The translations under genes were made by a program, and so were the position numbers. From NCBI GenBank assembly GCA_005879535.1, contig VBKI01000093.1:16981-80980 (forward strand): a DNA stretch of 64,000 nucleotides, in the 5' to 3' direction. Of the stretch, positions 9,113 to 62,153 are shown piece after piece. The notes beneath the pieces are model-generated. The model was not told the origin of the DNA, made no database searches, and worked only from the letters and a program-made list of their open reading frames with translations. The first letter of the stretch is position 1. Each line of letters opens with the position of its first letter. This DNA comes from Deltaproteobacteria bacterium (GTDB lineage Bacteria; Myxococcota; Myxococcia; Myxococcales; 40CM-4-68-19).

Positions 9113-9118
9113 GGCATC

Positions 9119-9134: not shown

Positions 9135-9186
9135 GACCTTTCCCCGCCCCGGTCACGCAGGGCAGTAATCCCCCTCTGGAGTGGCT

Positions 9187-9202: not shown

Positions 9203-9217
9203 CAAATGGATCATCCG

Positions 9218-10507: not shown

Positions 10508-11199
<692 letters not shown>

Positions 11200-11205
11200 G
11201 GCCCG

Positions 11206-11390: not shown

Positions 11391-11395
11391 ACTTC

Positions 11396-13804: not shown

Positions 13805-13808
13805 GACG

Positions 13809-22755: not shown

Positions 22756-22765
22756 GCGCAGCTCC

Positions 22766-40758: not shown

Positions 40759-41823
40759 ATGCTGGGTTCGTTCATGCTCCCCGGGCGAGCGACAGCCGAA
40801 GGCACGGCGCGGTTCCGCGAGGACGCGGATTCGGCGTCAGGGCACTTCCGCGAAGCGGAAGGGCTGTCGGTGTCGTCGCTGGGTATCGGCACGTATCTGG
40901 GCCGCGACGACGCGAAGACCGACGCGCTCTACGCCGCCTCCGTCCGCCGCTCGATCCAGCTCGGCCTCAATGTCGTCGACACGGCGATCAACTATCGCAA
41001 CCAGCGCAGCGAGCGCGCAGTCGGGGCGGCCCTGCGCGAGAGTGGGCAGCAGCGCGACGGGGTCGTGCTCTGCACCAAGGGCGGCTACCTCGCCTTCGAC
41101 GGCGGGCGCCCGCACGATGCGCGTGCGTACGTCGAGGAGACGTTCCTCCGCAGCGGCATTCTGGAGGCTGACGACATCGTCGCCGGCTGCCACTCGCTGG
41201 CGCCACGTTTTCTCCAGGACCAGATCGACCGCAGCCGCCGCAACCTCGGTGTCGAATGCATCGACGTCTACTACCTGCACAATCCCGAGACGCAGCTCGG
41301 CGAAGTGCCTCGCCCCGAATTCCTGCGCCGGCTCCGCGTTGCATTCCAGGCGCTGGAGCGCGCGTGTGCCGACGGGCGCATCGGCTGGTACGGGACCGCG
41401 ACCTGGAATGGCTACCGGGTCGAATCCGACGACGAGGAGCACCTCTCGCTCGCGGAAGTCCTCGCCGCCGCCCGCGACGTCGCCGGCGATCGGCACCGCT
41501 TCCGCGCCGTCCAGCTACCGTTCAACGTCGAAATGGACGAGGCCGCCACCTTGCGCAACCAGGACGGCTCGACCTTCCTCGAGGCCGCGCAGGCATCGCG
41601 GCTGATGGTGTTCGCTTCCGCGAGCGTGCTGCAAGGGCGGCTCACGCACGAGCTTCCCCAGGCGGTCCGCGATGCGCTGGCGGGCGTGGAAACGGACGCG
41701 CAGCGGGCCCTGCAGTTCGCCCGCAGCACGAAGGGGATCACCTGCGCGCTGGTCGGGATGAAAACGCCGGCTCATGTGGACGAGAACGCGGCGCTGGCAG
41801 GCGTCGAGCCGCTTTCGCTGTAG
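40759..41823 (+). CDS. aldo/keto reductase
   Basis: AKR-family similarity (VDTAINYRNQRSERAVG, DVYYLHNP). Only the last 354 aa of the 802-aa track ORF look real. Confidence 0.85.
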   Translation: MLGSFMLPGRATAEGTARFREDADSASGHFREAEGLSVSSLGIGTYLGRDDAKTDALYAASVRRSIQLGLNVVDTAINYRNQRSERAVGAALRESGQQRDGVVLCTKGGYLAFDGGRPHDARAYVEETFLRSGILEADDIVAGCHSLAPRFLQDQIDRSRRNLGVECIDVYYLHNPETQLGEVPRPEFLRRLRVAFQALERACADGRIGWYGTATWNGYRVESDDEEHLSLAEVLAAARDVAGDRHRFRAVQLPFNVEMDEAATLRNQDGSTFLEAAQASRLMVFASASVLQGRLTHELPQAVRDALAGVETDAQRALQFARSTKGITCALVGMKTPAHVDENAALAGVEPLSL

Positions 41824-42028
41824 GAGGTGGAATGCTGGGGAGCCGCACGTCCGAAGAGTGAGCTTCGACCCGAGCCGGAATAGACGGCGTCTTCACGGTG
41901 AACATGCGCGCACGGCGCAGGAGCGAGAGCGTGCCCGTCACTGGAGCAAGCAGCCATCCCGCGAGCGCCCCGACCTTTCTCCGACGTCCACGCTTTCAAA
42001 CTGCTGCGTGGACGTTCAGCGAGCACAC

Positions 42029-42226
42029 TCAGTTGGGCATCGCGCGGAGGGGCGTGACCCGTCCCTGGGACAAGGCGGAATGCACCGGGCGCTCCTGCTT
42101 CACCACCGGCGGCCTGCGCGGTGCGGTCGCGGCATTGAACGACGCGAAGTCGGCCATCGCCATCGCCGCCATCACCACCCAGAGAATCGCGAGCGCGATC
42201 GGGAACCAGCTCTTCAACAGCCGCAT
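42029..42226 (-). CDS. small hypothetical membrane protein (65 aa)
   Basis: ATG at 42226 with AAGGAG 5 nt upstream. One TM helix (WFPIALAILWVVMAAMAMA). It forms the tail of an artefactual 428-aa track ORF. Confidence 0.3.
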   Translation of the reverse strand: MRLLKSWFPIALAILWVVMAAMAMADFASFNAATAPRRPPVVKQERPVHSALSQGRVTPLRAMPN

Positions 42227-42294
42227 GGCATCTCCTTCTGCGTGCCCTTCGTGAGGTCCTACGCAGCAGGAGTGTCCGCATTTCAGGCGTGGTT

Positions 42295-42981
42295 TCAGGC
42301 CGAAAGGGGGATCATTTCGCGCAACAGTGCGAGGGCGGCGGGGAACATCCGCTCCGCCCACACATCGTAGCCGAGGGCGCTGGGGTGGAAACCGTCCGGC
42401 GAGAAGAGCTCCGGGTGCCCGGGGAGGGCGTGGCGGCTCCAGTCGTACAGATCGACCAGCGACAATTTGTGCCGCGCCGCCGTGGCCGTGACGTGCTCGT
42501 TGAACAGCTCGATGCGGCGCTCGTAGAACGAACGCTCCACCATCCGCGCCACCGCAGGCGAAAGCGCAAGATCCGGCATGTTCGCGATGACGATGGGGGC
42601 GGCAAGCTTCCGCAACGGCACTACAATCTCTTCCAGGTTCACCGCGAAGGCATCGTCGGGACGCTGCAGGCCTACATCGTTGATCCCGATCCCGATGGTC
42701 ACCAGGCGGGGCCGGGTACGCAGCGCGCGCGGCAGTTGGATCTCGATCACGTCGGAGGTCGTGGCGCCGCTGCCGCCGAGGTTGACGAGCTTCAGCGTCG
42801 GAAACGCTCCGCGGAGCTTCGCCGCGAGTCGTTCCGGATAGCCGCCGCCGCTCGGCGCGCCGATCCCGACCGCCGTGGAGTCGCCGAGCGCCAGATAGAG
42901 GAGTTCCGCCGGCACTGCGACAATGTAGGCATCGCGCAGTCTTGCCGGGCGGGTGCGACCGCCGCCTACCCTGGCCAACAA
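42295..42981 (-). CDS. SGNH/GDSL hydrolase family protein
   Basis: Block I LYLALGDSTAVG, block II NLGGSGATT, block III GINDV, block V DGFHPS. The start is uncertain (TTG 42981 or GTG 42915). Confidence 0.8.
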   Translation of the reverse strand: MLARVGGGRTRPARLRDAYIVAVPAELLYLALGDSTAVGIGAPSGGGYPERLAAKLRGAFPTLKLVNLGGSGATTSDVIEIQLPRALRTRPRLVTIGIGINDVGLQRPDDAFAVNLEEIVVPLRKLAAPIVIANMPDLALSPAVARMVERSFYERRIELFNEHVTATAARHKLSLVDLYDWSRHALPGHPELFSPDGFHPSALGYDVWAERMFPAALALLREMIPLSA

Positions 42982-43022
42982 ACAGGCGAATTTGCACCCC
43001 GATGCTAAGCTGGCAGGCGTCG

Positions 43023-45872
43023 ATGATCTCAGGGAAGGACCTCCTCAACCAGTTCAAGGCTGCGTCGTGGAGGGCCCCCGACGAGGTGGAGCGATTCGTC
43101 GCGGAAGCGGAAGCGCCGCAGACCGCGGAGCTCCTGAAACTGCTGGACATCGTCACGGGAAAAGCGCCGGACGCGAGCGTGCAGCGCGCGCGGCTGACGG
43201 TGTTCGCGCGCTTGATCGACAAGAACCCGGACAAGGCGCTCTGCGCGCCGTTCGTGAAGGCGCTGAAGTCGGCGGAGCCGGCGCTGCGAACCACGCTCGC
43301 CGCGCTGCTGCCCAAGGTGAACAGCGCGACCGAGCACGCGGTGCTGGTCGACTACCTGCGCTCGTCCGATAGCGGGCTGCGCGCCACCGTCGCGCGTACC
43401 CTGCAGCAGCTCGGCGGCAGCCGCGCGCTGTTCGATCTGCTCGGCCGCGCGGTGGCCGAGGCGGGTTTCGCAGGCCGCATCGAAGCGATGGACGTCCTGG
43501 TAGGCTTCGCCAAGCAACAGGCGATCCCCGCCCTGCAAGCGGCGCTCATCTCCGGCTCGGCGGCGGAAAAGGTACACGCGCTCAAGCACCTCGGCAACGC
43601 CGCGGTGATGGGCAAGGACCCTGCCGCTGCCCTCAAGGCCATCGCGCCGCTGCTCGACGCGCAGAAGGAGCAGGAGGCGGTCGTCGTCCAGGCCGTCCTC
43701 GCCTTCTCGGCCCTCGCCACTGAGGATGACTGGTTCGAGTACGTGGGCATCTTCCTCGACTCCGACACGGTGGGAATGGTCAAGGCGGCGGTCGACGGAC
43801 TGCGCCGCTTCAGCTCCGCCCGCGTGATGGCCGCGCTGGAGCGGAAGATGCGCGCCGGCCCGCGCGTCATCCGCCTCGCGGTGCTCGGAGCGCTGGAGGC
43901 CATCGGCACCGACGCCGTGCTGCCGCCGCTGGTCGACGCCCTCGCCCACAACCAGATCCCGGTGCGAAACCGCGCCGCCGAAGTTCTCAAGCAGCTCTCG
44001 ATGGAGGGCAAGCTCGACGTCTCGCGGACGGTGATCTGGCTGCTGCGCAGCCGCGACGTCAACGTACGCCGGATGGCGACGGAGATCATCCGCACAGTCG
44101 CCGATCCCGATCAACAGCTCTGGCCAAAGCTGATGGGCGTGCTGCGGGACGAGGACTGGTGGGTGCGCGAGCGCGTCATGGACGCGCTGATCGAACTCGG
44201 CGGCGTTCGCCTCACGGCCCACGTCGTGTCCCTGCTCACGGATGCCAGCGACGTGATCCGGCGCTTCGCGGTCAGCGTGCTCGGCCGGATCAAGGATCCC
44301 AAGGCTTTGCGCTCGCTGGTGCAGATGGCCACCGAGGATACCGATTGGTGGGTGAAGGAGACCGCCATCGAGTCGGTGGCTGCGATCAACGACGCGCGCA
44401 CGGTCCCGCACCTCCTGCACATCATGGCTGCAGATGCCGACGTGCAGCCGGTGTGCATCCAGGCGCTGATCGACATGGGCGTGAAGACAGCAAGCCCGCA
44501 GGTTGCGTCCCTCTGCGCATCGGAAAGCGCGGACGTGCGGTACCTGGTGGTGAAGTATCTCGACAAGTTCGATGCCAGCGATCAGTCGGGGGCGGTGGCG
44601 AAACTGAACGACGATCCGCATCCCAAAGTGCGCTCAGCGGCGCGCGATCTGATCACCCGCTGGCGGATCACTGCCCAAGGGAAGCCAGCGCACGCGGTCC
44701 CGCTGCTCGACCGGCTCCTCCTTCAGCTCGCACAGGCCGAGGGCGACGACCTGATCATCGCTTCCGGCAAGCCCGTGTTCATGAAGAAGGTCGGACGCGT
44801 CAACGCCGTGAACGCGACGCCGCTGGAAGAAGAGCAGGTCAAGGCGCTGCTTTTGCCGCATCTCTCCACCGACCAGCTGATGGCGCTGCAGGCGATGCAG
44901 GACGTCGACTACTCGCACGAGGTGAAGAGCGAGGGGCTACGGTTTCGCGCCAACATCTTCTACCAGCTGGGAGGCCTCTCCGGCGTCTTCCGGCGCATCC
45001 GCGGGACGCTGCCGCAGTTCGAGAAGCTCGGCCTGCCGCCGCTGGTCCGTACCTTCGGCGACCTCAAGAACGGGCTGGTGTTGGTGGGCGGGCCGACGGG
45101 CTCGGGCAAGTCGACCACGCTCGCCGCGCTGATCGATTACATCAACCGGACCGCGTCGCGGCACATCATCGCGCTCGAGGATCCCATCGAGGTGATCCAC
45201 AAGCGCAAGGAGAGTCTCGTCAACCAGCGCGAGGTCGGCAGTCATACCCGCACCTTCGCCGCCGCCCTGCGATCGACGCTGCGCGAGGACCCGAACGTCA
45301 TCCTGGTCGGCGAGATGCGCGACCTGCCGACCATCGAGTTCACCGTGGTCGCGGCGGAAACGGGCCACCTGGTGTTCGGGACCGTGCACACGGTTTCCGC
45401 CGCCACCACCGTCGACCGCATCGTCAGCGCGTTTCCCCCGGGACAACAGCAGCAGGTGCGCTCGACGCTCGCCGACTCCCTGCGCGCCGTGGTCTGCCAG
45501 TATCTCATGAAGGAGAAAACCGGCCCGGGTCGCGTGCTCGCCGTGGAGCTGCTGGTGAACAACGAAGCCGTCTCCAACCTGATCCGGAAAGGAAAGGCCT
45601 TCCAGCTTCCCTCGGTGATCTCCACCTCTCGCGAGCAGGGCATGCAGCTGATGGATTCCGACCTGATGCGTTTGGTGAAGGAGAACCGGATCAGCGCCGC
45701 CGACGCGTACGTGAAGGCGCTGAGCAAGAAGGATTTCGAGCCGCTGCTGGATGCGGAGGAAAAGCTCGCGCAGCAGAAGCGCATTCCGATTTTCAAGCCG
45801 TCGGCAGCCATCCCCACGCGGCCGCAACCGATCGCCGCAGTCCGTACGGCACCGGCAACGAGGAAGGAATAG
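43023..45872 (+). CDS. HEAT-repeat domain fused to a PilT-family hexameric secretion ATPase
   Basis: The N-terminal ~555 aa hold multiple HEAT_2/PBS-type repeats (e.g. LRDEDWWVRERVMDALIELGG, ATEDTDWWVKETAIESVAAIND, LNDDPHPKVRSAARDL). The C-terminal ~390 aa form a complete PilT core: Walker A GGPTGSGKSTT, Asp box ALEDPIE, Walker B ILVGEMRD, His box GHLVFGTVHT, and AVSNLIRKGK. An alternative ATG lies at 43002. Confidence 0.85.
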   Translation: MISGKDLLNQFKAASWRAPDEVERFVAEAEAPQTAELLKLLDIVTGKAPDASVQRARLTVFARLIDKNPDKALCAPFVKALKSAEPALRTTLAALLPKVNSATEHAVLVDYLRSSDSGLRATVARTLQQLGGSRALFDLLGRAVAEAGFAGRIEAMDVLVGFAKQQAIPALQAALISGSAAEKVHALKHLGNAAVMGKDPAAALKAIAPLLDAQKEQEAVVVQAVLAFSALATEDDWFEYVGIFLDSDTVGMVKAAVDGLRRFSSARVMAALERKMRAGPRVIRLAVLGALEAIGTDAVLPPLVDALAHNQIPVRNRAAEVLKQLSMEGKLDVSRTVIWLLRSRDVNVRRMATEIIRTVADPDQQLWPKLMGVLRDEDWWVRERVMDALIELGGVRLTAHVVSLLTDASDVIRRFAVSVLGRIKDPKALRSLVQMATEDTDWWVKETAIESVAAINDARTVPHLLHIMAADADVQPVCIQALIDMGVKTASPQVASLCASESADVRYLVVKYLDKFDASDQSGAVAKLNDDPHPKVRSAARDLITRWRITAQGKPAHAVPLLDRLLLQLAQAEGDDLIIASGKPVFMKKVGRVNAVNATPLEEEQVKALLLPHLSTDQLMALQAMQDVDYSHEVKSEGLRFRANIFYQLGGLSGVFRRIRGTLPQFEKLGLPPLVRTFGDLKNGLVLVGGPTGSGKSTTLAALIDYINRTASRHIIALEDPIEVIHKRKESLVNQREVGSHTRTFAAALRSTLREDPNVILVGEMRDLPTIEFTVVAAETGHLVFGTVHTVSAATTVDRIVSAFPPGQQQQVRSTLADSLRAVVCQYLMKEKTGPGRVLAVELLVNNEAVSNLIRKGKAFQLPSVISTSREQGMQLMDSDLMRLVKENRISAADAYVKALSKKDFEPLLDAEEKLAQQKRIPIFKPSAAIPTRPQPIAAVRTAPATRKE

Positions 45873-46949
45873 ATGGCCCGGATCGACTCCTTCCTGCGAC
45901 TGGTGGCGGAGCAGGGCGCGAGCGACCTGCATTTCCATGCCGGCAACGTGCCAATCATCCGGTACGAGGGCGCGCTGATGCCGCTTCCATTCCGCGTGCT
46001 CTCGGAGGTGGAGACCAGCCGGTTCCTGCTCGAGCTTCTTGCCGAAGACCAGCGCGCCGAGTTCGAGAAGACGCAGGAAGCGGACCTCGTCTACGCGATC
46101 GAGGGCGTAGCGCGGTTCCGGGTGAACATCTTCGTGCAGTCGCAGGGGCTGGGCGCCGTGTTCCGCGTGATCCCCAACAAGGTCCCCACGCTGCAGGACC
46201 TGCGGCTGCCCCCGGCGGTCAAGAAGCTCACCCTGCTGGCCAACGGGTTGGTGCTGGTCACCGGCCCCACCGGATCGGGGAAGAGCACCACGCTGGCGGC
46301 GATGGTGGACGAGATCAACAAGTCGTCGCAGCGCCACGTGATCAGCATCGAGGATCCGATCGAGTTCCTCCACCAGCCCATCAAGGGCGCCATCACGCAG
46401 CGGCAAGTGGGAAAGCACGCCGAGTCGTTCTCCAGCGCCCTGCGGTCGGCGCTGCGCGAGAGTCCCGACGTGCTGGTGGTCGGCGAGATGCGCGATCTGG
46501 AGACCATCCACCTCGCCATCGCCGCGGCCGAGACGGGCGTGCTGGTGATCGGAACGCTGCATTCGAACAGCGCCGCGAAGGCGATCGACCGCATCATCGA
46601 CGTGATCCCGGAGGAGAGCCGCGACCAGGTGCGCAGCACGCTCTCCGTGCTCTTGCGCGGCGTGATCTCGCAGCACCTCGCCAAGCACGCCAGCGGAGAG
46701 GGGCGCGTGGCGGTGATGGAGGTGCTGCTGCAGAGCTACGCGGTCGCCAACCTGATCCGCGAAAACAAGATCTTCCAGATCGACGGCTATCTCGACAGCG
46801 CCTCCAACGACGGCAGCGGGATGCAGAGCCTCGACGCCAGCCTGTTCAGGCTGCTCAAGCAGGGCGACATCACCGTCGAGGAGGCGATCAAGCTCGCGAA
46901 TCTACCCGAGTCGCTCAAGCGCCTGGCGGCGGAAATGCAGGAGGAGTGA
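45873..46949 (+). CDS. pilT: PilT-family type IV pilus retraction-type ATPase paralog
   Basis: Full-length PilT similarity: GPTGSGKSTT, IEDPIE, LVVGEMRD, GVLVIGTLHS, AVANLIRENK. The ATG immediately follows the upstream TAG. Confidence 0.9.
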   Translation: MARIDSFLRLVAEQGASDLHFHAGNVPIIRYEGALMPLPFRVLSEVETSRFLLELLAEDQRAEFEKTQEADLVYAIEGVARFRVNIFVQSQGLGAVFRVIPNKVPTLQDLRLPPAVKKLTLLANGLVLVTGPTGSGKSTTLAAMVDEINKSSQRHVISIEDPIEFLHQPIKGAITQRQVGKHAESFSSALRSALRESPDVLVVGEMRDLETIHLAIAAAETGVLVIGTLHSNSAAKAIDRIIDVIPEESRDQVRSTLSVLLRGVISQHLAKHASGEGRVAVMEVLLQSYAVANLIRENKIFQIDGYLDSASNDGSGMQSLDASLFRLLKQGDITVEEAIKLANLPESLKRLAAEMQEE

Positions 46950-48964
46950 TGGATGCCAAGGCCCGCGAGAAGGCGCTGGATCGAGCGCGGGGCCTGGAGA
47001 AGGCCGGGCAAGGCGACGCCGCCGCGAGACTCTTCCGCGACGTGGGCGCGGTGGAGGAAGCGGCGCGCGTGCTCGGCTCGCTGCGGCGGCCGCGCGACGC
47101 CGGGCAGCTCTTGCTGGAGAGCCTGGGAGTGCAACCGGGGCAGGTCGGACGGCTCGATTCTGCGGGAAGGAAGCGCGCCCTGATGGCAGCCATCTTCTTC
47201 GGGCGCGCGAGGGAGAACCAGACCGCAGTGCAGATGTTCATGGCCCTCGGCGAGCAGCAGCGCGCGGTGGAGGTCCTGCAGAAAGCCGGCGATTCGGTAG
47301 GCGCTGCGAAGCTGTCCTCGATGAAGCCGGGGCAGTTCGAGACCGGGCCGCTGCTGGCGCCGTCGAAGGCCACCGCCGTGGGCGGGCAGGCCGTCTCGAT
47401 GGTCTCGGCGCAAAAGCTCGAGCAGCAGGGCAAGCACGAAGCTGCCCTGCAATCGTACGTGCAGCTGAAGCGCTTCGCGGACGCAGCCCGCATGGCGAAA
47501 GTGCTGGGGCGGAAGGCCGACGCGGCCCAACTCTACGCCGACGCGGGGGCGCCGTTCGAGGCCGCGCAGGCCTACCTCGAGCTCGGGGATACCGGAAAGG
47601 CGCTGGAGAACCTCTGCCGCGTACCCGCCGAAGACGCGCAGTACCGCGTGGCGGCGGCCATCGCGGTGCGCCTGGCTACGAACCTCAACGTGCTCGATTT
47701 CCGCTTCGAGCACTTCGTCGGCCCGTACGTGCGCAGTGGGCCGCGCGACGCCGCGGAGCTGCAGGTCTTCGACCTGCTCGCGGCGCTGTACGACTCGCAT
47801 GGGTTTCCCGAGAACGCCCGCGAAGCGTTGCAGAAGCTGCTCGCAGCGCAGCCCGCGCATCCGGGCGCGCGCGAGCGCCTGGGCCGCGTCGAAGAGCAGC
47901 TCCGGCCTTCGGCGATGGTCGCGCGCCAGGTCCTCTCCAACGCGGACCTCCACAAGAAGCGCATGCCGTCGTTGCCGGACCTGGGCGATCTGCCGGATTT
48001 GCCCGGCGGCGGCTCGGCCACGGTTCTTCGCACCGATCCCGGGTTGTTGAAGAAGGTGAGCAGGTCGCCGGAAACCACGCCGCCGGAATTGCTCGCGGAA
48101 GCCGAAGTCGTGGTCGGACAACCCGTCTCTTCCGAGGAGAAGTTCGAAGTCGGCGCGACCGTGGCCGGCCGCTATCGCCTCGAGGCGAAGATCGGCCAGG
48201 GTGGCATGGCGACCGTCTTCCGCGCGTTCGATCTGGAGCTGGAGGAAAACGTCGCGCTCAAGGTCTTCAACCTGGAGCAGGCGTCGGAGGTGCTCGTGGC
48301 GCGGTTCAAGCAGGAGCTGAAGCTCTCGCGCCAGCTCATCCACCCGAACATCATCCGGCTGTACGACATCGGCGCGCACAACGGACATCGGTACATCAGC
48401 ATGGAGCTGCTGGTGGGCAAGAGCCTCAAGGACTGCATGCGCCAGCCCATCGAGTTCCGCACCGCGCTCGGGTACCTGCTGCAGGCGTGCCACGGCCTGC
48501 AGGCGGCGCACGACGCGGGCGTCATCCACCGCGACGTAAAGCCGGACAACTTCTTCGTTACCGAGGACGGTATCCTCAAAGTGATGGACTTCGGCATCGC
48601 CAAGCAGTACGCCACGCCGGGTGTGACGGTGGCCGGGGCCATCGCTGGAACTCCGCTCTACATGTCGCCGGAACAGATCGGAAACTTCAGCACCGTGACG
48701 CACCTGACCGACATCTACGCGCTGGGCGTCTGCGCCTACGAGATGTTCACCGGGCAGGTGCCGTTCTTCCACGAGGAGCTGGTGCCGATCCTGATGATGC
48801 ACGTGAACAACCGACCGGTGCCGCCGCGGGAAAAGAACCCGCACGTGCCAGCCGAGCTGGACGCGATCATCGTCCGGCTGCTCGCCAAGGACCCCAGGCA
48901 GCGGTACCAGAGTTGCCGCGAGCTGGCGCAGGAGCTGGGCGCGATTCGCGACGCGTACGCATGA
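46949..48964 (+). CDS. Ser/Thr protein kinase with N-terminal ~370-aa helical-repeat (TPR-like) domain
   Basis: TGATG junction with pilT. The C-terminal Hanks kinase has GQGGMATVF, VALKV, HRDVKPDN, DFG and SPE motifs. The N-terminus is alpha-helical repeat sequence. Only the last 671 aa of the 1601-aa track ORF look real. Confidence 0.9.
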   Translation: MDAKAREKALDRARGLEKAGQGDAAARLFRDVGAVEEAARVLGSLRRPRDAGQLLLESLGVQPGQVGRLDSAGRKRALMAAIFFGRARENQTAVQMFMALGEQQRAVEVLQKAGDSVGAAKLSSMKPGQFETGPLLAPSKATAVGGQAVSMVSAQKLEQQGKHEAALQSYVQLKRFADAARMAKVLGRKADAAQLYADAGAPFEAAQAYLELGDTGKALENLCRVPAEDAQYRVAAAIAVRLATNLNVLDFRFEHFVGPYVRSGPRDAAELQVFDLLAALYDSHGFPENAREALQKLLAAQPAHPGARERLGRVEEQLRPSAMVARQVLSNADLHKKRMPSLPDLGDLPDLPGGGSATVLRTDPGLLKKVSRSPETTPPELLAEAEVVVGQPVSSEEKFEVGATVAGRYRLEAKIGQGGMATVFRAFDLELEENVALKVFNLEQASEVLVARFKQELKLSRQLIHPNIIRLYDIGAHNGHRYISMELLVGKSLKDCMRQPIEFRTALGYLLQACHGLQAAHDAGVIHRDVKPDNFFVTEDGILKVMDFGIAKQYATPGVTVAGAIAGTPLYMSPEQIGNFSTVTHLTDIYALGVCAYEMFTGQVPFFHEELVPILMMHVNNRPVPPREKNPHVPAELDAIIVRLLAKDPRQRYQSCRELAQELGAIRDAYA

Positions 48965-49794
48965 TCGGCGTTGCGCTCGCGCTCGCGGTGGGCGCATCGG
49001 ACAAGGTCGACGTGCGACCCGCGGCGGATCTCACCGTCGCCGGAGTGGCCCTCGTCGGATGGATCGTTCCGGAGCTCTCGCGGAACCAGCTCGTGCCGGC
49101 CCACTGCCGGCTCTGCGACGGCGCCGACAATACCGGCCTTCCCGGGACGGGGTCGCGCGGCTCGCTGAACGGCGTCGACGCCTGGTTTCACGACGCCATG
49201 ACGGGATGGGTTTTGTCGCGGTCGACGGCGGGCGTCGCCAGCGACGTCGTCGCGTACCTTCTCGTGCCGGCTGCGGCGATTGCCGGCGCCTGGACCACGA
49301 CGGGGCCGCACGCAAGCGACGGGGCCGATTGGCGTGCCGTGTCCATTGTCATGGAGTCGGCTCTCCTCTCCGGCGCCCTCGCGGAGGGTGTGAAGTTCAT
49401 CGCCGCGCGCAAGCGGCCATACGTGCGCTACGGCACCGGCGAAGCGGAGGGAACGTACGGCGTGACCGACGTGGGCAGCCACCTCGGCTTTCCCTCAGGC
49501 CATACCGCGTGGGTGACGTCGCTCGGCGTCGCCCTGGCGACCACCGCGACCATTGAGGAATCCGCCGCGGCTCCGTGGCTCTGGGCCGGCGCCGCCGTCG
49601 GCTCAGTGACGACCTCGGCGCTGCGCATGATCGCTGAGAAGCACTACTTCACCGACGTGGCGGCCGGCGCCGCCATCGGGGCGGCCTGCGGCGTCGTCGT
49701 GCCGCTTCTCCACCGGCGCGGCGGGCCGTTGTCCAGCGGCTCGCTGTCGGTTGCCGCGCAGGGGCCCTCGTTTGCGCTGACCGGCCGTTTCTAA
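48961..49794 (+). CDS. PAP2-family membrane phosphatase
   Basis: ATGA overlap with the kinase stop. PAP2 motifs KFIAARKRP, PSGH and SALRMIAEKHYFTD. Several TM helices. Confidence 0.8.
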   Translation: MIGVALALAVGASDKVDVRPAADLTVAGVALVGWIVPELSRNQLVPAHCRLCDGADNTGLPGTGSRGSLNGVDAWFHDAMTGWVLSRSTAGVASDVVAYLLVPAAAIAGAWTTTGPHASDGADWRAVSIVMESALLSGALAEGVKFIAARKRPYVRYGTGEAEGTYGVTDVGSHLGFPSGHTAWVTSLGVALATTATIEESAAAPWLWAGAAVGSVTTSALRMIAEKHYFTDVAAGAAIGAACGVVVPLLHRRGGPLSSGSLSVAAQGPSFALTGRF

Positions 49795-49812
49795 GGCGGT
49801 AGATTCCCGCGC

Positions 49813-51423
49813 ATGACCCATCCGCTCGCCGGAAAGCCGGCCCCGCGCGAATTGTTGATCGATGTCGAGCGGCTGCGCCGGCTCTATTACGAAGAGAAGC
49901 CCGATCCCGCGGATCCGCAGCAGCGCGTGGCGTTCGGGACCAGCGGCCACCGCGGTACCGCACTGAAGCGTGCGTTCAACGAGGCGCACATCCTCGCCGT
50001 GACCCAGGCCGTCTGCGAGTACCGCAAGGCCCAGGGGACGAGCGGCCCGCTTTATCTCGGCAAGGACACGCACGCGCTCTCGGATCCGGCGCAGGACACT
50101 GCCCTGTCGGTTCTCGCGGCCAACGACGTGCACGTCCTCTGGTCGCGCCGCGCCACGCCCACGCCGGTGATCTCGCACGCGATCCTCACGTACAACCGCG
50201 GGCTCTCGCGCGGGTTCGCGGACGGGATCGTGATCACGCCGTCGCACAATCCGCCCGAGGATGGTGGCATCAAGTACAACCCGCCGAGCGGCGGACCGGC
50301 CGACACCGCGGCGACGGGATGGATCGAGAACCGCGCGAACGACCTCTTGCGGAACCCGGACTCGATCGGACGCGCGGTGCGGCCCGGGATGCTTGAGGAG
50401 CACGATTTCATCACACCTTACGTGCGCGATCTGGGCAACGTCGTCGATCTGGAGCCCGTGCGCGGGTTGCGGCTGGGAGTCGATCCGCTCGGCGGATCGA
50501 ACCTCGATTACTGGGATCCGATCGCGTCGGAGTACGGCCTCGACATCACCGTGGTGAACCGGACGGTCGATCCGACGTTCGGGTTCATGACGGTCGATCA
50601 CGACGGCAAGATCCGGATGGACTGCTCGTCGCCCTACGCAATGGCGAAGCTGGTGGGGCTCAAGGATCAGTACCAGCTCGCCTTCGGCAACGACACGGAC
50701 TCCGACCGGCACGGGATCGTCACGCCCGGCGCCGGGCTGATGAACCCCAATCACTATCTCGCGGTCGCGATCCAGTACTTGTTCACGAACCGGACCTGGC
50801 CGGCTCGCGCGGCAGTGGGGAAGACGCTCGTGTCTTCCGCGCTGATCGATCGTGTGGCGCGGAAGATCGGGCGGACGCTGCGCGAGGTGCCGGTCGGGTT
50901 CAAATGGTTCGTCGACGGGCTCCTCGACGGGTCGCTGGGCTTCGGCGGAGAAGAGAGCGCCGGCGCGTCATTCCTCCGCCTTGACGGGAGCGTGTGGGCC
51001 ACGGACAAGGACGGGATCATCATGGACTTGCTCGCGGCCGAGATCCTCGGACGCACCGGCAAGGATCCTGGCGTGCTCTATCAGAAGATCTCCGCCGAGC
51101 TCGGACGCCCGGTGTACACGCGCATCGATGCGCCCGCGACACCGGCACAGAAGGCGGCGCTGAAGAAGCTCTCCGCCGACGTAGTCCGCGCCGGCACGCT
51201 CGCTGGGGAGCCAATCACGGCGAAGCTGACGAAGGCGCCAGGAAACGGCGCCGACATCGGCGGCCTCAAGGTCGTCGCGCAGAACGGCTGGTTCGCAGCT
51301 CGGCCGTCAGGTACCGAGGACGTCTACAAGATCTACGCGGAAAGCTTCCGCGACGAGACGCACCTGCAACGCATCGTCGACGAGGCGAAAGCCATCGTGG
51401 CGGAAGCGATCAAGACGGTCTGA
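49813..51423 (+). CDS. pgm: phosphoglucomutase (alpha-D-glucose phosphate-specific)
   Basis: Full-length Pgm similarity, including the active-site region [15 protein letters not shown] and GEESAG. Confidence 0.9.
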
Positions 51424-51471
51424 CCGCGGCGAATTCCGGGACGAATCGGCGGGGTGCGTTAGACTTCGAGG

Positions 51472-53235
51472 ATGCCCTTCGACCCCGGCGCTTCCTTCGG
51501 CAAGTCGCTGTTCTTCGGCGACATCCTCGAGGACCAGCTCTTCCCCTACCCGGAGATGCCGCGAGACCAGGCCGAGCTGGTTGCGCCGATCTGCGAGACC
51601 ATCGACCGGTACATGGCCGGGATCGACAGGCGCAAGCTGGATCGCGACGGTGAGTTCCCTGCGGAGCTGCTCCAGTCGCTGAAGGAGATGGGCCTGTTCG
51701 GGCTGATCGTGCCGGAAGAGCACGGCGGCCTCGGGCTCTCCAACTCCGGTTACGCGAGAGTGATGCAGCAGGTTGCTTCCTGGGACGCGTCGATCGCCGT
51801 GACCCTCGGCGCACATTCCAGCATCGGTTTCAAAGGCCTCCTGCTGTTCGGCAACGACGCGCAGAAGCGGCGCTACCTTCCGAAGCTCGCATCGGGCGAG
51901 AACATCGCTGCGTTCTGCCTGACCGAGCCGGGGAGCGGGTCGGACGCGTTCTCGATCAAGACCAGCGCGCGCCGTGACGGCGACTTCTACGTCCTCAACG
52001 GGCAGAAGCTCTGGATCACCAACGGCGGCATCGCGGACTTCTACACCGTGTTCGCGAAGACGACTCTGGATACGGCGGAGCAGAAGGGAAAGATCACCGC
52101 CTTCATCGTCACCCGCGACCTCGGCGGCATCACGCACGGCCCGCACGAGGACAAGATGGGGATTCGCGCCTCGAACACGACCGCCGTCTTCTTCGACAAC
52201 GTGCGCGTGCCTGCGACGAACGTCCTCGGCGAGGAAGGCAAGGGCTTCAAGGTGGCGATGAGCATCCTCAACCACGGCCGCACCGGCCTGGGCGCTGGCG
52301 CGGTGGGAGGGCAGCGCAAGCTCCTTCAGCTCGCGATCGCGCATGCGGCCGAGCGCAAGCAGTTTGGCCGTCCGCTCGCGAGCTTCGGCAAGATCAAGGA
52401 GAAGCTCGGGCGGATCGCGACGAACCTCTACGTCAGCGAGTCCCTCTGCTACTTCGTCTCCTCGACCATCGATCGCGGGGCGGTCGACTACTCGGTGGAA
52501 GGAGCCGCCACCAAGGTCTTCAACTCCGAGGCGGTGTGGAGCGCCACCGACGAGGCGCTGCAGATCGCCGGCGGCATGGGCTACATGCGCGAGCAGCCCT
52601 ACGAGCAAGCGATGCGCGACACCCGCATCAACCGCATCTTCGAGGGGACGAACGAGATCCTGCGGCAGTACATCGGGCTGACCGGGCTGCAGAAGCCAGG
52701 CGAGTACCTGAAGGGTCTCGGCAAGGATCTGTCGAGCTCGCTCAGGGACCCGATCAAGGGATTCGGGCTCTTGCGCGAATACGCCGTCCGGAAAGCGCGC
52801 CAGACCGTGCCGATGCAGGCAGTGCCCTACGGGCGGACGCCGCAGATCGGCAAGGCGCATCCCACTTTGCACGAGCAGGTCGTGTACCTGGAGGACGCGG
52901 CCCAGGCGCTGGCCGCGCTCTGCGAGACGTCGCTGCGCAGGCATGGGCGCAACATCGTCGAGCAGCAGCTGCAAGTGGGCCGCATCGCCGACATCGCCAT
53001 CGATCTGCTGGCCCTCGCCGCCGCCCTCGCCCGCACGACACGGATCATCGAGCAGCGCGGCGTGGAGAAGGCGAAGAACGAGATCTCGATGACGTATACG
53101 TTCTACTCGGACGCGCGGACGCGCATCCGCGCCAACTCGCGCGCCAGCGGCGGGCACAACAACGACCAGTCGCTCCAGGACGTCGCCGACGCGGCCGTCG
53201 CCGCCGGCGGCTACCAGAACGACTTCCTCAAGTGA
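51472..53235 (+). CDS. acyl-CoA dehydrogenase (long, VLCAD/ACAD9-like with C-terminal extension)
   Basis: ACAD N, M and C domains (AFCLTEPGSGSD, QIAGGMGYM, RIFEGTNEI) plus a ~180-aa C-terminal extension. Confidence 0.9.
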   Translation: MPFDPGASFGKSLFFGDILEDQLFPYPEMPRDQAELVAPICETIDRYMAGIDRRKLDRDGEFPAELLQSLKEMGLFGLIVPEEHGGLGLSNSGYARVMQQVASWDASIAVTLGAHSSIGFKGLLLFGNDAQKRRYLPKLASGENIAAFCLTEPGSGSDAFSIKTSARRDGDFYVLNGQKLWITNGGIADFYTVFAKTTLDTAEQKGKITAFIVTRDLGGITHGPHEDKMGIRASNTTAVFFDNVRVPATNVLGEEGKGFKVAMSILNHGRTGLGAGAVGGQRKLLQLAIAHAAERKQFGRPLASFGKIKEKLGRIATNLYVSESLCYFVSSTIDRGAVDYSVEGAATKVFNSEAVWSATDEALQIAGGMGYMREQPYEQAMRDTRINRIFEGTNEILRQYIGLTGLQKPGEYLKGLGKDLSSSLRDPIKGFGLLREYAVRKARQTVPMQAVPYGRTPQIGKAHPTLHEQVVYLEDAAQALAALCETSLRRHGRNIVEQQLQVGRIADIAIDLLALAAALARTTRIIEQRGVEKAKNEISMTYTFYSDARTRIRANSRASGGHNNDQSLQDVADAAVAAGGYQNDFLK

Positions 53236-53240
53236 GAGCA

Positions 53241-53267
53241 CCGGGCGCTCCAGGACGGAGCGCCCGG
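53241..53267. terminator. bidirectional hairpin between convergent genes
   Basis: Perfect 11-bp GC-rich stem CCGGGCGCTCC/GGAGCGCCCGG with a 5-nt loop, placed between the stops at 53235 (+) and 53279 (-). There is no clear U-tract. Confidence 0.45.
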
Positions 53268-53278
53268 CACCGACCAGC

Positions 53279-53752
53279 TTAGAGCGAGAGCACCCCAGTC
53301 CGGATCAGGTAGGCGAGCTGCGCCCGTTGTCCGGAGTCGAGCAGCGCGTGGATCCGCCCGAGGGCCTTGATCACCGCATCGCGCAGCCGCTCGGCGCTCT
53401 TCACCCGCAGGTCGCCGCCCTCGCGCGCGCGGGCCTCGTCGAACGCGTCGAGCCCGAGCGCGTCGGCGAACGACGCGACCGTCCGGCGATCGTCCACGGC
53501 CGCCTGCGCGCGCTCGGTCTTCAGCTCGTCGAGGATCTTCGCGAGCTGCGAGACCTGCTCCTCGCTCAAGTTCAGCTTGTAGGCCAGGAACCGGAGCGGC
53601 CTGCGGACGCCGAATGCGCCGCTGCCAAAGTCGTCTCCGGGACCGCGCCACGGGCCGGCTTGCCAGCCGCCACCTTCACCCGCGGAAGCGCCTTCGCTGC
53701 CGCAGCCGTGCCGGCGCGCGTTCTTCCACCACCACATCATGCCTGGATGCAT
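53279..53752 (-). CDS. Spy/CpxP (LTxxQ-type) family protein
   Basis: ATG at 53752 with GGAGG 5 nt upstream. Helical repeats with LNLSEEQ and LDSGQRAQ (LTxxQ-like) motifs. Gly/Trp-rich N-terminus with no obvious signal peptide. Confidence 0.55.
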   Translation of the reverse strand: MHPGMMWWWKNARRHGCGSEGASAGEGGGWQAGPWRGPGDDFGSGAFGVRRPLRFLAYKLNLSEEQVSQLAKILDELKTERAQAAVDDRRTVASFADALGLDAFDEARAREGGDLRVKSAERLRDAVIKALGRIHALLDSGQRAQLAYLIRTGVLSL

Positions 53753-53938
53753 CGTTCCTCCAACTCGCCGGGGCCATTCGCTCCCGGCGGGGATTTCGGG
53801 CGTGGGCACCATGCCTCACGCCGTCCCTTGAACCTAACCTCCGCGCCCGCCACGTCAACACCGCGGCGCGCCATCGGCTTTTCCCCAGTCAGATCCTTTT
53901 GCTGAAGGCGGCGTTCACTCAGCGCAGGAGGTGCTGCC

Positions 53939-58167: not shown

Positions 58168-59265
58168 CTATTGGCACTGTGGCTTGTGAAGCTGGATATT
58201 GCCGCCCGCGAGGAAGTTGTCAGAGTTTACTGGAGCCCCGTTCAAGAGCAATTGGAACCTGTCGACTCCGCGGCCTGACTCAGCATTATCGGCGACGTCC
58301 GCCTCATATGATTCGGTGGTGCCATCGACGTCGGCCAAGCCGAGCGTCTTCCTGCCGTTCGATCCGAAAGCAGGGTACGCGCCGTAACCGGTCACTGCGG
58401 TTCCTTTGACGCGCAACGGCTTGCCGTGGTCGAGGTACATCAGGTGACCCCAGAACAACCCGTTCTTGATGCCACCCGCCACGGCGAAGTTTGCCTTGGC
58501 ATTCGGATCTGACGGCGATGCAATCCATCCCCCACCGGTGACGAAGTCGGCGGCGGTCGCGTCGCACGGCGGCGGCGACGCAGGACAGGTGATGTCGGCA
58601 TGTGCATGGGAGACGATCACCTCGGCGAGCGGCGCCGATCCCGACGCCGGGTTGTTGACTACGACGTGCAGGGCGTTGACGTCCATCGTGCCCGACTGGC
58701 CGTTGACCGAGCTCGACTGCTCGTTGATCACGACTGACCCTGCATTGAGCGGCAGTGGGACGGTCTGGTTGGTGGCTCCGGAAACGTCGATGCTCTGACC
58801 GTTGATGACGACTTTGGCCAGATCGGACCTGCCGCTGACGGATGGGCTTGTCCCTGTGCATTGGGCGCTGGCCTCCGACATCAGGAAGTCGGCGGCGATC
58901 GTGTTTCCGGCGGCAGTCAGGCTGAGATCGGCGACCGATGCCTCTGACCGGCTCGCGTTTCCCCGGCCGATCGTCGTGGCATGTGCAACGTCAGCTCCAT
59001 TCAAGCCCCCGGCGGTGCCCAGCGAGATCGGCGGGACGTCCAGAAGGGAGGCTTCCTGCGCGCCTCCACTGGAAGGGAGGGGACCGGTGTCGGCGACGGT
59101 GATCGGCAAGAGCGGCGGGACGGTGGCCTGTACGACGTAAGCCTGCCCACTGAAAGTGGGCGTGGAGGATGTCTGCGCGATGCTCCTTGCGGGTGCAGCG
59201 AACAGCGACATCAGGGCGACGAGGATGAAGCGGCGCGAAGCATGACATGTCTTCTCGTGTGCCAC
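58168..59265 (-). CDS. secreted two-domain hypothetical protein
   Basis: Best start is GTG 59265 (or ATG 59352), giving the signal peptide RRFILVALMSLFAAPARSIA. The N-terminal domain has GQAYVVQATV...VINEQ...NALHVVV. The C-terminal domain has VTGGGWI...GGNIQLH and ends in Cys-x-Cys-like KPQCQ. My recollection that these resemble 'choice-of-anchor' type families is unverified. Confidence 0.6.
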   Translation of the reverse strand: MAHEKTCHASRRFILVALMSLFAAPARSIAQTSSTPTFSGQAYVVQATVPPLLPITVADTGPLPSSGGAQEASLLDVPPISLGTAGGLNGADVAHATTIGRGNASRSEASVADLSLTAAGNTIAADFLMSEASAQCTGTSPSVSGRSDLAKVVINGQSIDVSGATNQTVPLPLNAGSVVINEQSSSVNGQSGTMDVNALHVVVNNPASGSAPLAEVIVSHAHADITCPASPPPCDATAADFVTGGGWIASPSDPNAKANFAVAGGIKNGLFWGHLMYLDHGKPLRVKGTAVTGYGAYPAFGSNGRKTLGLADVDGTTESYEADVADNAESGRGVDRFQLLLNGAPVNSDNFLAGGNIQLHKPQCQ

Positions 59266-59713
59266 AGACACAACCCAATCCTTTCTCTTTGCCAGCTGCC
59301 TGAGCGCAGCGGCGGTCGAAGGCAACCTGGGGCACTTCGCCGCAAGCGCCATTCGGCAAGATTGACGAGAGAAGAAGATCGTCCCGAAATCGCGGTCACT
59401 TAAAGGTTTCGCCAATGATGGAATTGGATTTTCAAGTCGTACTTTTCGAAATTTGCAGACTCATGCGAGCAAAGCAAAGCAACGATGCGCGCCGCCCTGG
59501 GCATCTATCCATCGAGGAGGGCCACCTGTAATCTGCCAGCGCAGATGACCGTGTGCCGGCCTGCTTCATCCACCAACGCGCGGTGCTGCTCGGCTCGTTT
59601 GCCGTGTGGGCTCAAGGTTCGAGGGACAGTCGTGGTCACGGACGCCGTCAACCGCGTGGCGATCGGTCGGACGCCGGGCGATCAGGCGCCGATCTCGCGA
59701 AGCGCGCGAGACT

Positions 59714-61212: not shown

Positions 61213-61236
61213 CGCGGCCGAAGATCGCACGGAGGG

Positions 61237-62124: not shown

Positions 62125-62153
62125 GGGGCGTGGATGATAACCTCGCCGCACGA

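What the first reader, a model, noticed from the sequence alone, without database searches (positions are those of the whole stretch)
43023..49794. Orphan, translationally coupled operon: HEAT::PilT fusion, PilT paralog, repeat-domain Ser/Thr kinase, PAP2 phosphatase
Four plus-strand genes are joined with no spacer: TAG|ATG at 45872/45873, TGATG at 46947-46951, and ATGA at 48961-48964.

Both ATPases keep intact Walker A, Walker B, Asp-box and His-box motifs, so they look catalytically competent. No pilus fibre, platform, secretin or PilB gene lies anywhere in the 64-kb window.

Two PilT-type motors are hard-wired to a eukaryotic-like kinase and a membrane lipid-phosphate phosphatase. This suggests a signalling or envelope module that uses PilT-like hexamers for something other than classical pilus retraction, or a phosphorylation-controlled retraction switch. 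I do not know of a characterised system with this composition.
Basis: partly seen in the sequence, partly recalled or inferred. Interest (0 to 1): 0.72.

Follow-up and report, generated by a model that had tools for sequence, protein, structure and literature searches.

The report
Kinase-linked double PilT motor module
Two pilus-retraction-type motor ATPases (one with a large HEAT-repeat arm) and a dedicated Ser/Thr kinase form a three-gene unit kept together across soil Myxococcota; its function is untested, and the phosphatase gene next to it is only a local neighbour.

Summary
Domains are confirmed: HEAT-solenoid::PilT, a second PilT, a helical-repeat::Hanks kinase, and PAP2. One claim fails. 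The second PilT has Val in place of the first His of the His box, and this holds family-wide.

Across 80 species-level genomes anchored on the HEAT domain:
- PilT2 follows HEAT::PilT in 72/72 loci with room.
- The kinase follows PilT2 in 64/66.
- PAP2 follows the kinase in only 5/50, all close relatives, and one further relative carries a deletion remnant.
- No other neighbour is conserved.

So the real unit is three genes, not four. The kinase's N-terminal domain is almost exclusive to this kinase family (416 cluster representatives; 90/93 full-length ones carry the kinase).

The 64-kb window holds no pilus genes. One of the 80 relatives has pilB-pilT-pilC-pilA next to the module.

Best reading (inferred, about 0.45): an accessory, kinase-regulated pair of type IVa pilus retraction motors. 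They may correspond to the uncharacterised M. xanthus paralogues MXAN_6705/6706, but I could not test that orthology. I rate it a new variant of a known kind, of moderate interest.

The parts
42916..43022 (.). 107-bp divergent intergenic region between a GDSL-lipase gene (42298-42915, -) and g1. It is the presumed promoter region of the module.
   Evidence: Gene map, Pfam, sequence. There is no sigma-70 consensus hit, so the promoter is inferred only.
43023..45872 (+). g1: HEAT-solenoid::PilT fusion, 949 aa. Residues 1-555 (43023-44687) form an all-alpha HEAT/ARM-like solenoid. Residues 562-905 (44706-45737) are a complete PilT core with Walker A, Asp box, Walker B, both His-box histidines and AVSNLIRK. 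A roughly 45-aa C-terminal tail follows.
   Evidence: (PaPilT 3jvu E 9e-86; alphaRep HEAT designs E 1e-32), and 59 (AF2 mean pLDDT 81.9; solenoid mostly 85-96). The start at 43023 is supported by N-terminal conservation in homologues.
45873..46949 (+). g2: stand-alone PilT-family ATPase, 358 aa. Walker A, Asp box, Walker B and the second His are intact. The first His of the His box is replaced by Val (ETGVLVIGTLHS). The AIRNLIRE equivalent reads AVANLIRE.
   Evidence: TIGR01420, 424 bits; 3jvu E 8e-96; 49% identity to PaPilT; 44% to the g1 core.
46949..48964 (+). g3: cytoplasmic Hanks-type Ser/Thr kinase, 671 aa. Residues 1-335 (46949-47953) are a dedicated alpha-helical repeat (TPR-like) domain. 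Residues 336-400 are a disordered linker with a conserved LPDLxDLPG motif. Residues 409-658 (48173-48922) are the kinase domain, with K438, D529 (HRD) and D547 (DFG).
   Evidence: catalytic residues 94-98% conserved; AF2: N-domain pLDDT 94-98, linker below 50; N-domain family of 416 representatives; 90/93 full-length ones carry the kinase; no TM segment.
48961..49794 (+). g4: PAP2-superfamily membrane phosphatase, 277 aa, with KX6RP, PSGH and RX5HX3D present. It is a lineage-specific neighbour, not part of the conserved module.
   Evidence: motifs; present after the kinase in 5/50 loci; ATGA overlap kept in L001, L002 and L006; own start plus signal peptide in L009; deletion remnant in L005.
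49813..53235 (+). Phosphoglucomutase (49813-51423) and acyl-CoA dehydrogenase (51472-53235). They are same-strand followers, possibly co-transcribed, and are syntenic only in the closest relatives.

Best explanation
The region carries a conserved three-gene module found in Myxococcota and in a lineage labelled Vicinamibacteria.

1. A PilT-family hexameric ATPase whose N-terminus is a roughly 550-residue HEAT solenoid.
2. A second PilT-family ATPase that naturally lacks the first His-box histidine.
3. A soluble Hanks Ser/Thr kinase with its own TPR-like solenoid.

Shown:
- The three genes are abutting or overlapping here, and stay adjacent in the same order while every other neighbour changes.
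- All catalytic motifs except that one histidine are conserved.
- Both solenoids are confidently predicted as folded.

Inferred:
- The two ATPases work as a pair of accessory type IVa pilus retraction motors beside the canonical PilT, in the manner of PilT-PilU.
- PilT2 engages the pilus platform. The HEAT::PilT ring stacks on it through its C-terminal face, so the six HEAT arms point into the cytoplasm.
- The kinase docks there through its solenoid or its conserved linker motif, and switches motor activity or recruitment by phosphorylation.

PAP2, pgm and the acyl-CoA dehydrogenase gene are local passengers of this clade's operon.
For: - Synteny: 72/72 loci for PilT2 and 64/66 for the kinase. 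No other gene family recurs in more than 8 of 80 loci.
- Spacing is conserved and tight.
- Independent gene calls with the same architecture are seen in L081, L083 and L084.
- A natural single-ORF HEAT-PilT-PilT fusion, followed by the kinase, exists (P0063). Its C-terminus-to-N-terminus join fits ring stacking.
- Both ATPases score as PilT rather than PilU, PilB or GspE.
- In L021 the module sits beside pilB-pilT-pilC-pilA. That genome's canonical PilT keeps both histidines and AIRNLVRE, while its module copies show the g1-type and g2-type signatures. The module ATPases are therefore extra paralogues.
- PaPilT H222A, the same position as the g2 Val, still works but retracts more slowly and falls off the machine (PMC10187167).
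- M. xanthus deleted for MXAN_6706 has a partial S-motility defect (PMC13584747).
- Kinase catalytic residues are conserved, and its N-domain is dedicated to this family.
Against: - There is no direct evidence of transcription, interaction, phosphorylation or pilus function. The soil metatranscriptomes gave only cross-hits at conserved motifs.
- Pilus genes are adjacent in only 1 of 80 loci.
- Six 60-kDa HEAT arms might be incompatible with docking inside the PilM ring.
- Orthology to MXAN_6705/6706 was not tested. The M. xanthus paper calls the 6705 N-terminus 'intrinsically disordered', which does not fit a confidently folded solenoid.
- No cultured-species orthologue of the kinase was retrieved.
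- The single fusion ORF could be a sequencing error.
Confidence: 0.45

Rival explanations
1. The two ATPases power something other than a type IVa pilus, with the kinase as its regulator. Candidates are another type IV filament-like or secretion machine, or a cytoplasmic remodelling task that uses the HEAT arms as substrate adaptors.
For: - The module is free-standing in 79 of 80 loci and in the 64-kb window.
- A 550-residue HEAT solenoid on a PilT is not a feature of any solved PilT or PilU.
- g1 and g2 are each only 44-49% identical to canonical PilTs.
Against: - Both proteins are full-length PilT-subfamily members above the NCBIfam cutoff, with an AIRNLIRE-like motif.
- One relative has the module next to the pil cluster.
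- The M. xanthus paralogue deletion affects S-motility, if orthologous.
- No alternative machine genes co-occur.
Confidence: 0.2
2. This is a four-gene signalling/envelope operon in which the PAP2 lipid-phosphate phosphatase is an integral partner of the motors and the kinase.
For: - The ATGA overlap of kinase and PAP2 in the window is kept in L001, L002 and L006, with GTGA in L004.
- The PAP2 catalytic motifs are intact.
Against: - PAP2 follows the kinase in only 5/50 loci, all at 65% or more identity in the HEAT domain.
- The close relative L005 has lost it and keeps a remnant, while the three core genes remain.
Confidence: 0.07
3. These are ordinary redundant PilT/PilU-like spare copies, and the kinase is merely a neighbour with an unrelated job.
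For: - Multiple PilT paralogues are common (PMC8833165).
- Myxobacteria encode very many Hanks kinases.
Against: - Adjacency holds in 64/66 loci across lineages whose HEAT domains are only 37-50% identical, with 4-nt or 1-nt overlaps frequent, while all other neighbours turn over.
- The kinase N-domain occurs almost only in this kinase family.
Confidence: 0.1
4. It is an anti-phage defence module built around a PD-T4-6/MADS-like Ser/Thr kinase.
For: PADLOC PD-T4-6 and mad6 models hit the kinase domain (E down to 3e-82).
Against: - The hits cover only the generic Hanks domain. The NCBIfam MADS6 score is 170 against a cutoff of 460.
- The ATPases hit only through their P-loops, and PAP2 does not hit at all.
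- The module is vertically conserved in a housekeeping context with native codon usage (GC3 0.85-0.93) and no mobile-element or defence-island neighbours.
Confidence: 0.03

Closest known systems
Myxococcus xanthus PilT paralogue pair MXAN_6705 / MXAN_6706 (Clausen et al. 2009; Rahman et al. 2026, PMC13584747)
   Same: - Two adjacent PilT-family genes, the first with an extended N-terminus.
- Reported as widely conserved in Myxococcota.
- Walker A, Walker B, Asp and His boxes are reported.
- Function is unknown apart from partial S-motility defects, strongest for deletion of MXAN_6706.
   Different: - Orthology was not tested here, because the sequences could not be fetched.
- The paper calls the 6705 N-terminus intrinsically disordered. 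Here it is a confidently folded HEAT solenoid.
- The paper mentions no linked kinase and does not note the His-to-Val change in the second ATPase.
PilT-PilU dual retraction motors (P. aeruginosa, V. cholerae, M. xanthus PilU = MXAN_1995)
   Same: - Two PilT-family hexameric ATPases act together.
- There is a proposed ring-on-ring arrangement through the N-terminus of one and the C-terminus of the other.
- One partner is an accessory, weaker motor.
   Different: - Neither g1 nor g2 is PilU-like. PDB PilU scores are lower than PilT scores, and both keep an AIRNLIRE-like motif.
- PilU has no HEAT domain and no dedicated kinase.
- In gammaproteobacteria pilT and pilU sit at or near pil loci.
Canonical PilT (PaPilT 3JVU/3JVV; Geobacter PilT4 6OJX)
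   Same: - 47-49% identity over the full core.
- The same N-terminal and C-terminal ATPase domains.
   Different: - g1 has a 555-aa N-terminal solenoid and a C-terminal tail.
- g2 lacks the first His-box histidine. The H222A change at this position in PaPilT slows retraction (PMC10187167).
Hanks-type bacterial Ser/Thr kinases with TPR-like sensor or scaffold domains (for example PknD, or PknB-like by NCBIfam)
   Same: A catalytic domain with all key residues, and a repeat-domain partner region.
   Different: - The order is reversed, with the repeat domain N-terminal and the kinase C-terminal.
- There is no transmembrane segment.
- The N-domain has no Pfam model above threshold and no solved relative. 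The best PDB hit is the IFT140 TPR region at E 0.006.

Membership tests
PilT/PilU family type IVa pilus ATPase (NCBIfam TIGR01420) | Full-length match above the curated cutoff (319 bits) | tested here: met
   g1 residues 562-903 score 403.8 bits and g2 residues 4-345 score 424.1 bits. The best PDB relatives are PilT structures.
PilT/PilU family type IVa pilus ATPase (NCBIfam TIGR01420) | Walker A (GPTGSGKST), Asp box (EDPIE) and Walker B with catalytic Glu (GEMRD) | tested here: met
   These are invariant or nearly so in 76 g1-type and 58 g2-type sequences, the window's own included.
PilT/PilU family type IVa pilus ATPase (NCBIfam TIGR01420) | His box with two histidines (PaPilT H222 and H229) | tested here: not met
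   g1 keeps both. g2 has Val at the first position (V in 55/58) and keeps the second. The same split is seen within one genome, L021, whose canonical PilT has both. So the feature is met for g1 and not met for g2.
PilT (as opposed to PilU) | AIRNLIRE motif near the C-terminus | tested here: inconclusive
   g2 reads AVANLIRE (6/8) and g1 reads AVSNLIRK (5/8). The family consensus is A-V/I-A/S-N-L/M-I-R-E/K. Both are similar to the motif but not identical.
PilT retraction motor | Hexamer that docks on PilC/PilM of a T4aP machine and depolymerises pili | not testable with these tools
   The only evidence is genomic: one of 80 loci lies next to pilB-pilT-pilC-pilA.
M. xanthus MXAN_6705/6706 orthologues | Reciprocal best-hit or phylogenetic orthology, and the same domain architecture | not tested
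   The M. xanthus sequences could not be retrieved. The link rests on the text of PMC13584747.
Hanks-type Ser/Thr protein kinase (Pfam PF00069) | Pkinase match above cutoff, with the VAxK Lys, HRD Asp, DFG Asp and xPE | tested here: met
   170.8 bits against a cutoff of 31.7. K438, D529, D547 and P574-E575 are 93-98% conserved in 54 orthologues.
PAP2 / type 2 phosphatidic acid phosphatase superfamily (PF01569) | Pfam match above cutoff, and motifs C1 KX6RP, C2 PSGH and C3 (S)RX5HX3D | tested here: met
   58.7 bits against a cutoff of 27.2. The motifs are K145-X6-RP, PSGH at 178 and R222-X5-H-X3-D. The residue before the C3 Arg is Leu, not Ser.
PD-T4-6 / MADS kinase defence systems | Whole-protein match to the system's kinase, and a defence-island context | tested here: not met
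   Only the generic kinase domain matches. The NCBIfam MADS6 score is 169.7 against a cutoff of 460. The context is conserved and chromosomal.

The most novel reading that the evidence does not exclude
A phosphorylation-gated, two-ring PilT motor. A His-box-degenerate PilT ring and a HEAT-armed PilT ring form one obligate complex. A dedicated solenoid kinase controls its engagement with the pilus machine, or with a still unknown substrate. This would give Myxococcota a switchable 'clutch' for retraction that has no counterpart in the proteobacterial PilT/PilU paradigm.
Probability: 0.25. Interest if true: 0.8.

Novelty: new variant of a known kind. Interest (0 to 1): 0.55.

Why it matters
What the extra PilT paralogues of myxobacteria do has been open since 2009. 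PilT-independent retractions in M. xanthus are only partly explained by PilU.

This analysis changes how that question can be approached:
- Two of these paralogues, or their relatives, belong to a fixed three-gene unit with a dedicated kinase.
- One ATPase carries a folded HEAT platform.
- The other carries a natural 'slow-motor' substitution.

Together these turn a vague redundancy question into specific, testable hypotheses about ring pairing, kinase substrates and docking through the solenoids. They would also be a first case of Hanks-kinase control wired directly to a type IV pilus motor.

Tried and rejected
- **RNA evidence for a single transcript.** Only three small soil metatranscriptomes from a related study exist. 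The contigs that aligned were 90-95% matches at Walker and other conserved motifs from other organisms, so they were uninformative.
- **Promoter and terminator scan.** No sigma-70-like site and no + strand terminator lies in 41800-53900. The scan does not cover other promoter types, so it neither supports nor limits the operon.
- **Retrieving the M. xanthus MXAN_6704-6708 locus or a cultured-species orthologue.**
  - The genome-contig scan returned only MAGs in its best 80.
  - Two further homologue searches, with the L015 kinase and with a 62-sequence kinase profile, returned only about 25-30 orthologues each, none from cultured species.
  - Cluster look-up of 10 representatives gave only metagenome or MAG sources.
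  - Clausen 2009 and the kinome paper are not held.
  - Six supplement searches or listings found no MXAN_6705-6708 rows.
- **Fold search with the g1 model.** It returned only PilT-family chains and said nothing about the solenoid. I did not run it on the kinase model, because kinase hits would swamp the N-domain.
- **Sequence search of the kinase N-domain against the PDB.** It gave only a marginal IFT140 TPR hit.
- **Defence-system reading.** Considered and rejected.
- **PAP2 as a core member.** Rejected on synteny.


Full report
**Observation**

The window is about 68% G+C. A GC3-based gene map and direct translation confirm four + strand genes:
- g1, 43023-45872
- g2, 45873-46949
- g3, 46949-48964
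- g4, 48961-49794

- TAG then ATG with no spacer, preceded by GAGGAAGGAA
- TGATG, a one-base overlap
- ATGA, a four-base overlap

The same-strand run continues. A phosphoglucomutase gene starts 18 nt after g4 and an acyl-CoA dehydrogenase gene 48 nt after that. No terminator-like site lies on the + strand. Upstream, a GDSL-lipase gene is divergent and leaves a 107-bp intergenic region. Abutting or overlapping junctions of this kind are ordinary in compact high-GC operons, so they suggest co-translation but are not remarkable on their own.

**Gene identities**

- **g1 (949 aa).** It has five HEAT_2 matches (E 1e-38). Residues 562-903 are a full-length PilT/PilU-subfamily core (TIGR01420, 404 bits against a cutoff of 319). 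Against the PDB, the core matches P. aeruginosa PilT (E 9e-86). Residues about 250-520 match designed HEAT-like alphaRep proteins (E 1e-32).
- **g2 (358 aa).** It is a stand-alone PilT-subfamily protein (424 bits; PaPilT E 8e-96).
- **g3 (671 aa).** It has a C-terminal Hanks kinase domain (Pkinase E 5e-50) and only weak TPR hits in the N-terminal 400 residues.
- **g4 (277 aa).** It is a PAP2 phosphatase with KX6RP, PSGH and RX5HX3D present.

g1's core and g2 are 44% identical to each other and 47% and 49% identical to PaPilT. They are two old, distinct PilT-lineage paralogues, not a recent duplication. Both score higher against PilT than against PilU structures.

I aligned 76 g1-type and 58 g2-type sequences with PaPilT.
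- Walker A, the Asp box, the Walker B glutamate and the second His-box histidine are invariant or nearly so in both families.
- g2-type proteins carry Val instead of the first His-box histidine (55/58). The window reads ETGVLVIGTLHS.
- g1-type proteins keep both histidines.
- The AIRNLIRE equivalents are AVSNLIRK in g1 and AVANLIRE in g2.

One relative, L021, also encodes a canonical PilT. That protein has SETGHLAFATLHT and AIRNLVRE, while the module copies in the same genome show the g1-type and g2-type signatures. In P. aeruginosa PilT, H222A at this position leaves a working but slower motor that falls off the machine more often (PMC10187167).

**Conservation**

The HEAT::PilT fusion is a large family.
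- A word-indexed search found 567 clusters.

The best 80 loci are all MAGs. They are labelled Myxococcales, Myxococcaceae, Polyangia/Polyangiales, Bradymonadia or 'Deltaproteobacteria'. Twelve are labelled Vicinamibacteria or Acidobacteriota, and these form two or three coherent clades in a neighbour-joining tree.

I placed the window's proteins on these loci with tblastn:

| Gene pair | Loci with the pair / loci with enough DNA |
|---|---|
| PilT2 directly after HEAT::PilT | 72/72 |
| Solenoid kinase after PilT2 | 64/66 (exceptions L050, L079) |
| PAP2 after the kinase | 5/50 |

Further points:
- All-against-all clustering of 841 called ORFs found no other family in more than 8 of the 80 loci.
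- With rough start calls, g1-to-g2 gaps are mostly -1 to +55 nt. g2-to-g3 gaps are mostly -4, -1 or up to +8 nt.
- Independent gene calls with precomputed Pfam hits show the same trio in three more contigs found from the kinase side.
- One JGI contig encodes HEAT-PilT-PilT as a single 1296-aa ORF followed by the kinase (P0063).

The loci were chosen by the HEAT domain. The statistic is therefore conditional on HEAT::PilT being present.

**PAP2 and downstream genes**

PAP2, pgm, the acyl-CoA dehydrogenase and the upstream GDSL lipase are syntenic only in the closest relatives, those at 65% or more HEAT-domain identity.
- The ATGA overlap of kinase and PAP2 recurs in L001, L002 and L006. L004 has GTGA.
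- L009 has a separate start with a clear signal peptide.
- L005 has lost the gene and keeps a short remnant between the kinase stop and pgm.

PAP2 is therefore a lineage-specific insertion into this clade's operon and not a partner of the module.

**Structure predictions**

- **g1**, with a 48-sequence alignment, gives mean pLDDT 81.9. Residues 1-550 form an uninterrupted all-alpha solenoid, mostly pLDDT 85-96. A short low-confidence hinge follows, then a PilT core. A fold search returns only PilT, PilU, DotB and PilB chains.
- **g3**, with 25 orthologues, gives a very confident N-terminal solenoid (pLDDT 94-98) of about 10-residue helices with a period of about 13 residues. A disordered linker (334-395) contains invariant prolines in a conserved LPDLxDLPG motif. 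A normal kinase fold follows. No transmembrane segment is predicted.

The catalytic Lys, HRD, DFG and xPE are 93-98% conserved in 54 orthologues.

An exhaustive HMMER search of 1.84 billion cluster representatives with the N-domain alone found 416 proteins at E up to 1e-3 and 247 at E up to 1e-10. Of the 93 listed representatives of 550 aa or more, 90 carry the kinase domain C-terminally. The domain is essentially private to this kinase.

**Pilus context**

Pfam scans of all called genes in the window found no pilin, PilB, PilC or PilM-Q. What they found is listed under 'Noticed in passing'. No type IV pilin leader motif occurs in any frame.

Among the 80 loci, only L021 has pilus genes within 10 kb. 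It carries a pilB-pilT-pilC, two-component-like pair, pilA cluster, divergent from the module and separated from it by one MurJ-like gene. I could not see beyond the window, so whether this organism has a T4aP machine elsewhere is unknown.

**Literature**

The closest described objects are the M. xanthus PilT paralogues MXAN_6705 and MXAN_6706. According to PMC13584747:
- they are adjacent;
- they are 'highly conserved across Myxococcales';
- 6705 has a longer N-terminus that the authors call intrinsically disordered;
- deletion of MXAN_6706 gives one of the stronger partial S-motility defects.

That paper mentions no kinase. Searches for HEAT plus PilT, for the neighbouring locus tags, and for a kinase-PilT paralogue link found nothing relevant. 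I could not obtain the M. xanthus sequences, so orthology is a lead, not a result. The 'disordered' description is either a discrepancy in that paper or a sign that 6705 is a reduced relative.

**Mechanism**

Shown:
- The three genes form a fixed, tightly spaced unit.
- The catalytic machinery is conserved, except for one histidine in PilT2.
- Both solenoids are predicted as folded.
- The kinase N-domain is dedicated to this kinase family.
- The ATPases are extra PilT paralogues alongside a canonical PilT, in at least one genome.

Inferred (about 0.45):
- The two ATPases act as an accessory retraction-motor pair on the T4aP machine, comparable to PilT-PilU.
- The single natural fusion joins g1's C-terminus to g2's N-terminus. 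This matches the PilT N-terminus to PilU C-terminus stacking described for PilT-PilU.
- That geometry would put PilT2 at the machine and the HEAT::PilT ring below it, with its arms facing the cytoplasm.
- The kinase would dock on these arms, or on the rings, through its solenoid or linker motif, and set motor activity or recruitment by phosphorylation.

Rivals, in order of weight:
1. A non-pilus job for the motors (0.2).
2. Coincidental neighbours (0.1, against 64/66 conservation).
4. A defence system (0.03). Only the generic kinase domain hits PADLOC models.

**Verdict**

The motor-kinase coupling is real, widespread and, as far as I could find, undescribed. PAP2 is not part of it, and the His box of PilT2 is not intact. 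The thing is a new variant of a known kind: PilT-family paralogues with a HEAT fusion and a private kinase. It is of moderate interest and becomes high interest if the phosphorylation-gated two-ring motor is borne out.

Noticed in passing
L021:67-12775: This is the one relative of 80 with pilus genes nearby. It has a canonical pilB-pilT-pilC, histidine-kinase-like and NtrC-like pair, pilA cluster on the - strand. The cluster is divergent from the HEAT::PilT module and only a MurJ-like gene separates them. The canonical PilT there keeps both His-box histidines and AIRNLVRE.
   Followed up: yes
P0063 (JGI contig of 8819 bp; no DNA available): A single 1296-aa ORF fuses HEAT-PilT to PilT2 through a linker of about 30 residues, and the solenoid kinase follows it. 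P0002 (1222 aa) is a second, internally deleted fusion-like sequence. These could be real Rosetta-stone fusions or sequencing errors.
   Followed up: partly
L005:6040-6124: In this close relative the PAP2 gene is reduced to a short remnant (ATGACCATCGCCGCGCAGGGGCCAGCCCTCG...) between the kinase stop and pgm. PAP2 was lost here while the three-gene core stayed.
   Followed up: partly
window 47954-48148 (g3 residues 336-400): The disordered linker between the solenoid and the kinase domain holds a conserved proline motif (LPDLxDLPG). P340 is invariant, and P343 and P349 nearly so. It looks like a short linear docking motif.
   Followed up: no
L019, L030, L034, L043, L044, L051, L055-L057, L063, L069, L073, L078: Twelve or more MAGs labelled Vicinamibacteria or Acidobacteriota carry the module and form coherent clades in the g1 tree. 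One clade has a shorter kinase N-domain. This is either a real spread beyond Myxococcota or a consistent taxonomic mislabel. L071 and L075 are labelled Klebsiella and Enterobacterales, which is surely a binning or labelling error.
   Followed up: partly
L024:3724-5721 and L081:10763-11440: L024 has an extra 665-aa T2SSE-family ATPase immediately upstream of HEAT::PilT on the same strand. L081 has a PilZ-domain gene convergent just downstream of the kinase.
   Followed up: no
window 22342-34579 (- strand): A respiratory cluster. It holds cytochrome c oxidase subunits IV, III, I and II (the last with a cytochrome c domain), a SCO1-like gene, c-type cytochromes, an NrfD-like membrane subunit, a 1030-aa 4Fe-4S protein and a multihaem c7-like cytochrome. 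It resembles an alternative complex III plus aa3-oxidase supercluster.
   Followed up: no
window 6653-17350: Two MacB-type ABC exporter sets (FtsX/MacB_PCD permeases, an HlyD adaptor and ABC ATPases) are followed by a sigma-54 response regulator (14691-16058). A sensor kinase probably lies on the + strand around 16100-17350, where my codon-bias caller chose the wrong strand. A GAF-PAS-GGDEF-EAL protein lies at 18888-21338 (-).
   Followed up: no
window 61237-64000: A Ku gene (-) and a divergent LigD-type ATP-dependent ligase/primase-polymerase gene (+, running off the window) form a bacterial NHEJ pair. A MerR-TPR regulator lies next to them at 60406-61230.
   Followed up: no
window 1-2700 and 58168-59700: These two patches have lower G+C (0.63 against about 0.68) and weak or no coding signal. 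The 365-aa ORF at 58168-59265 has no Pfam hit. There are no tRNA genes and no Rfam family anywhere in the window.
   Followed up: partly
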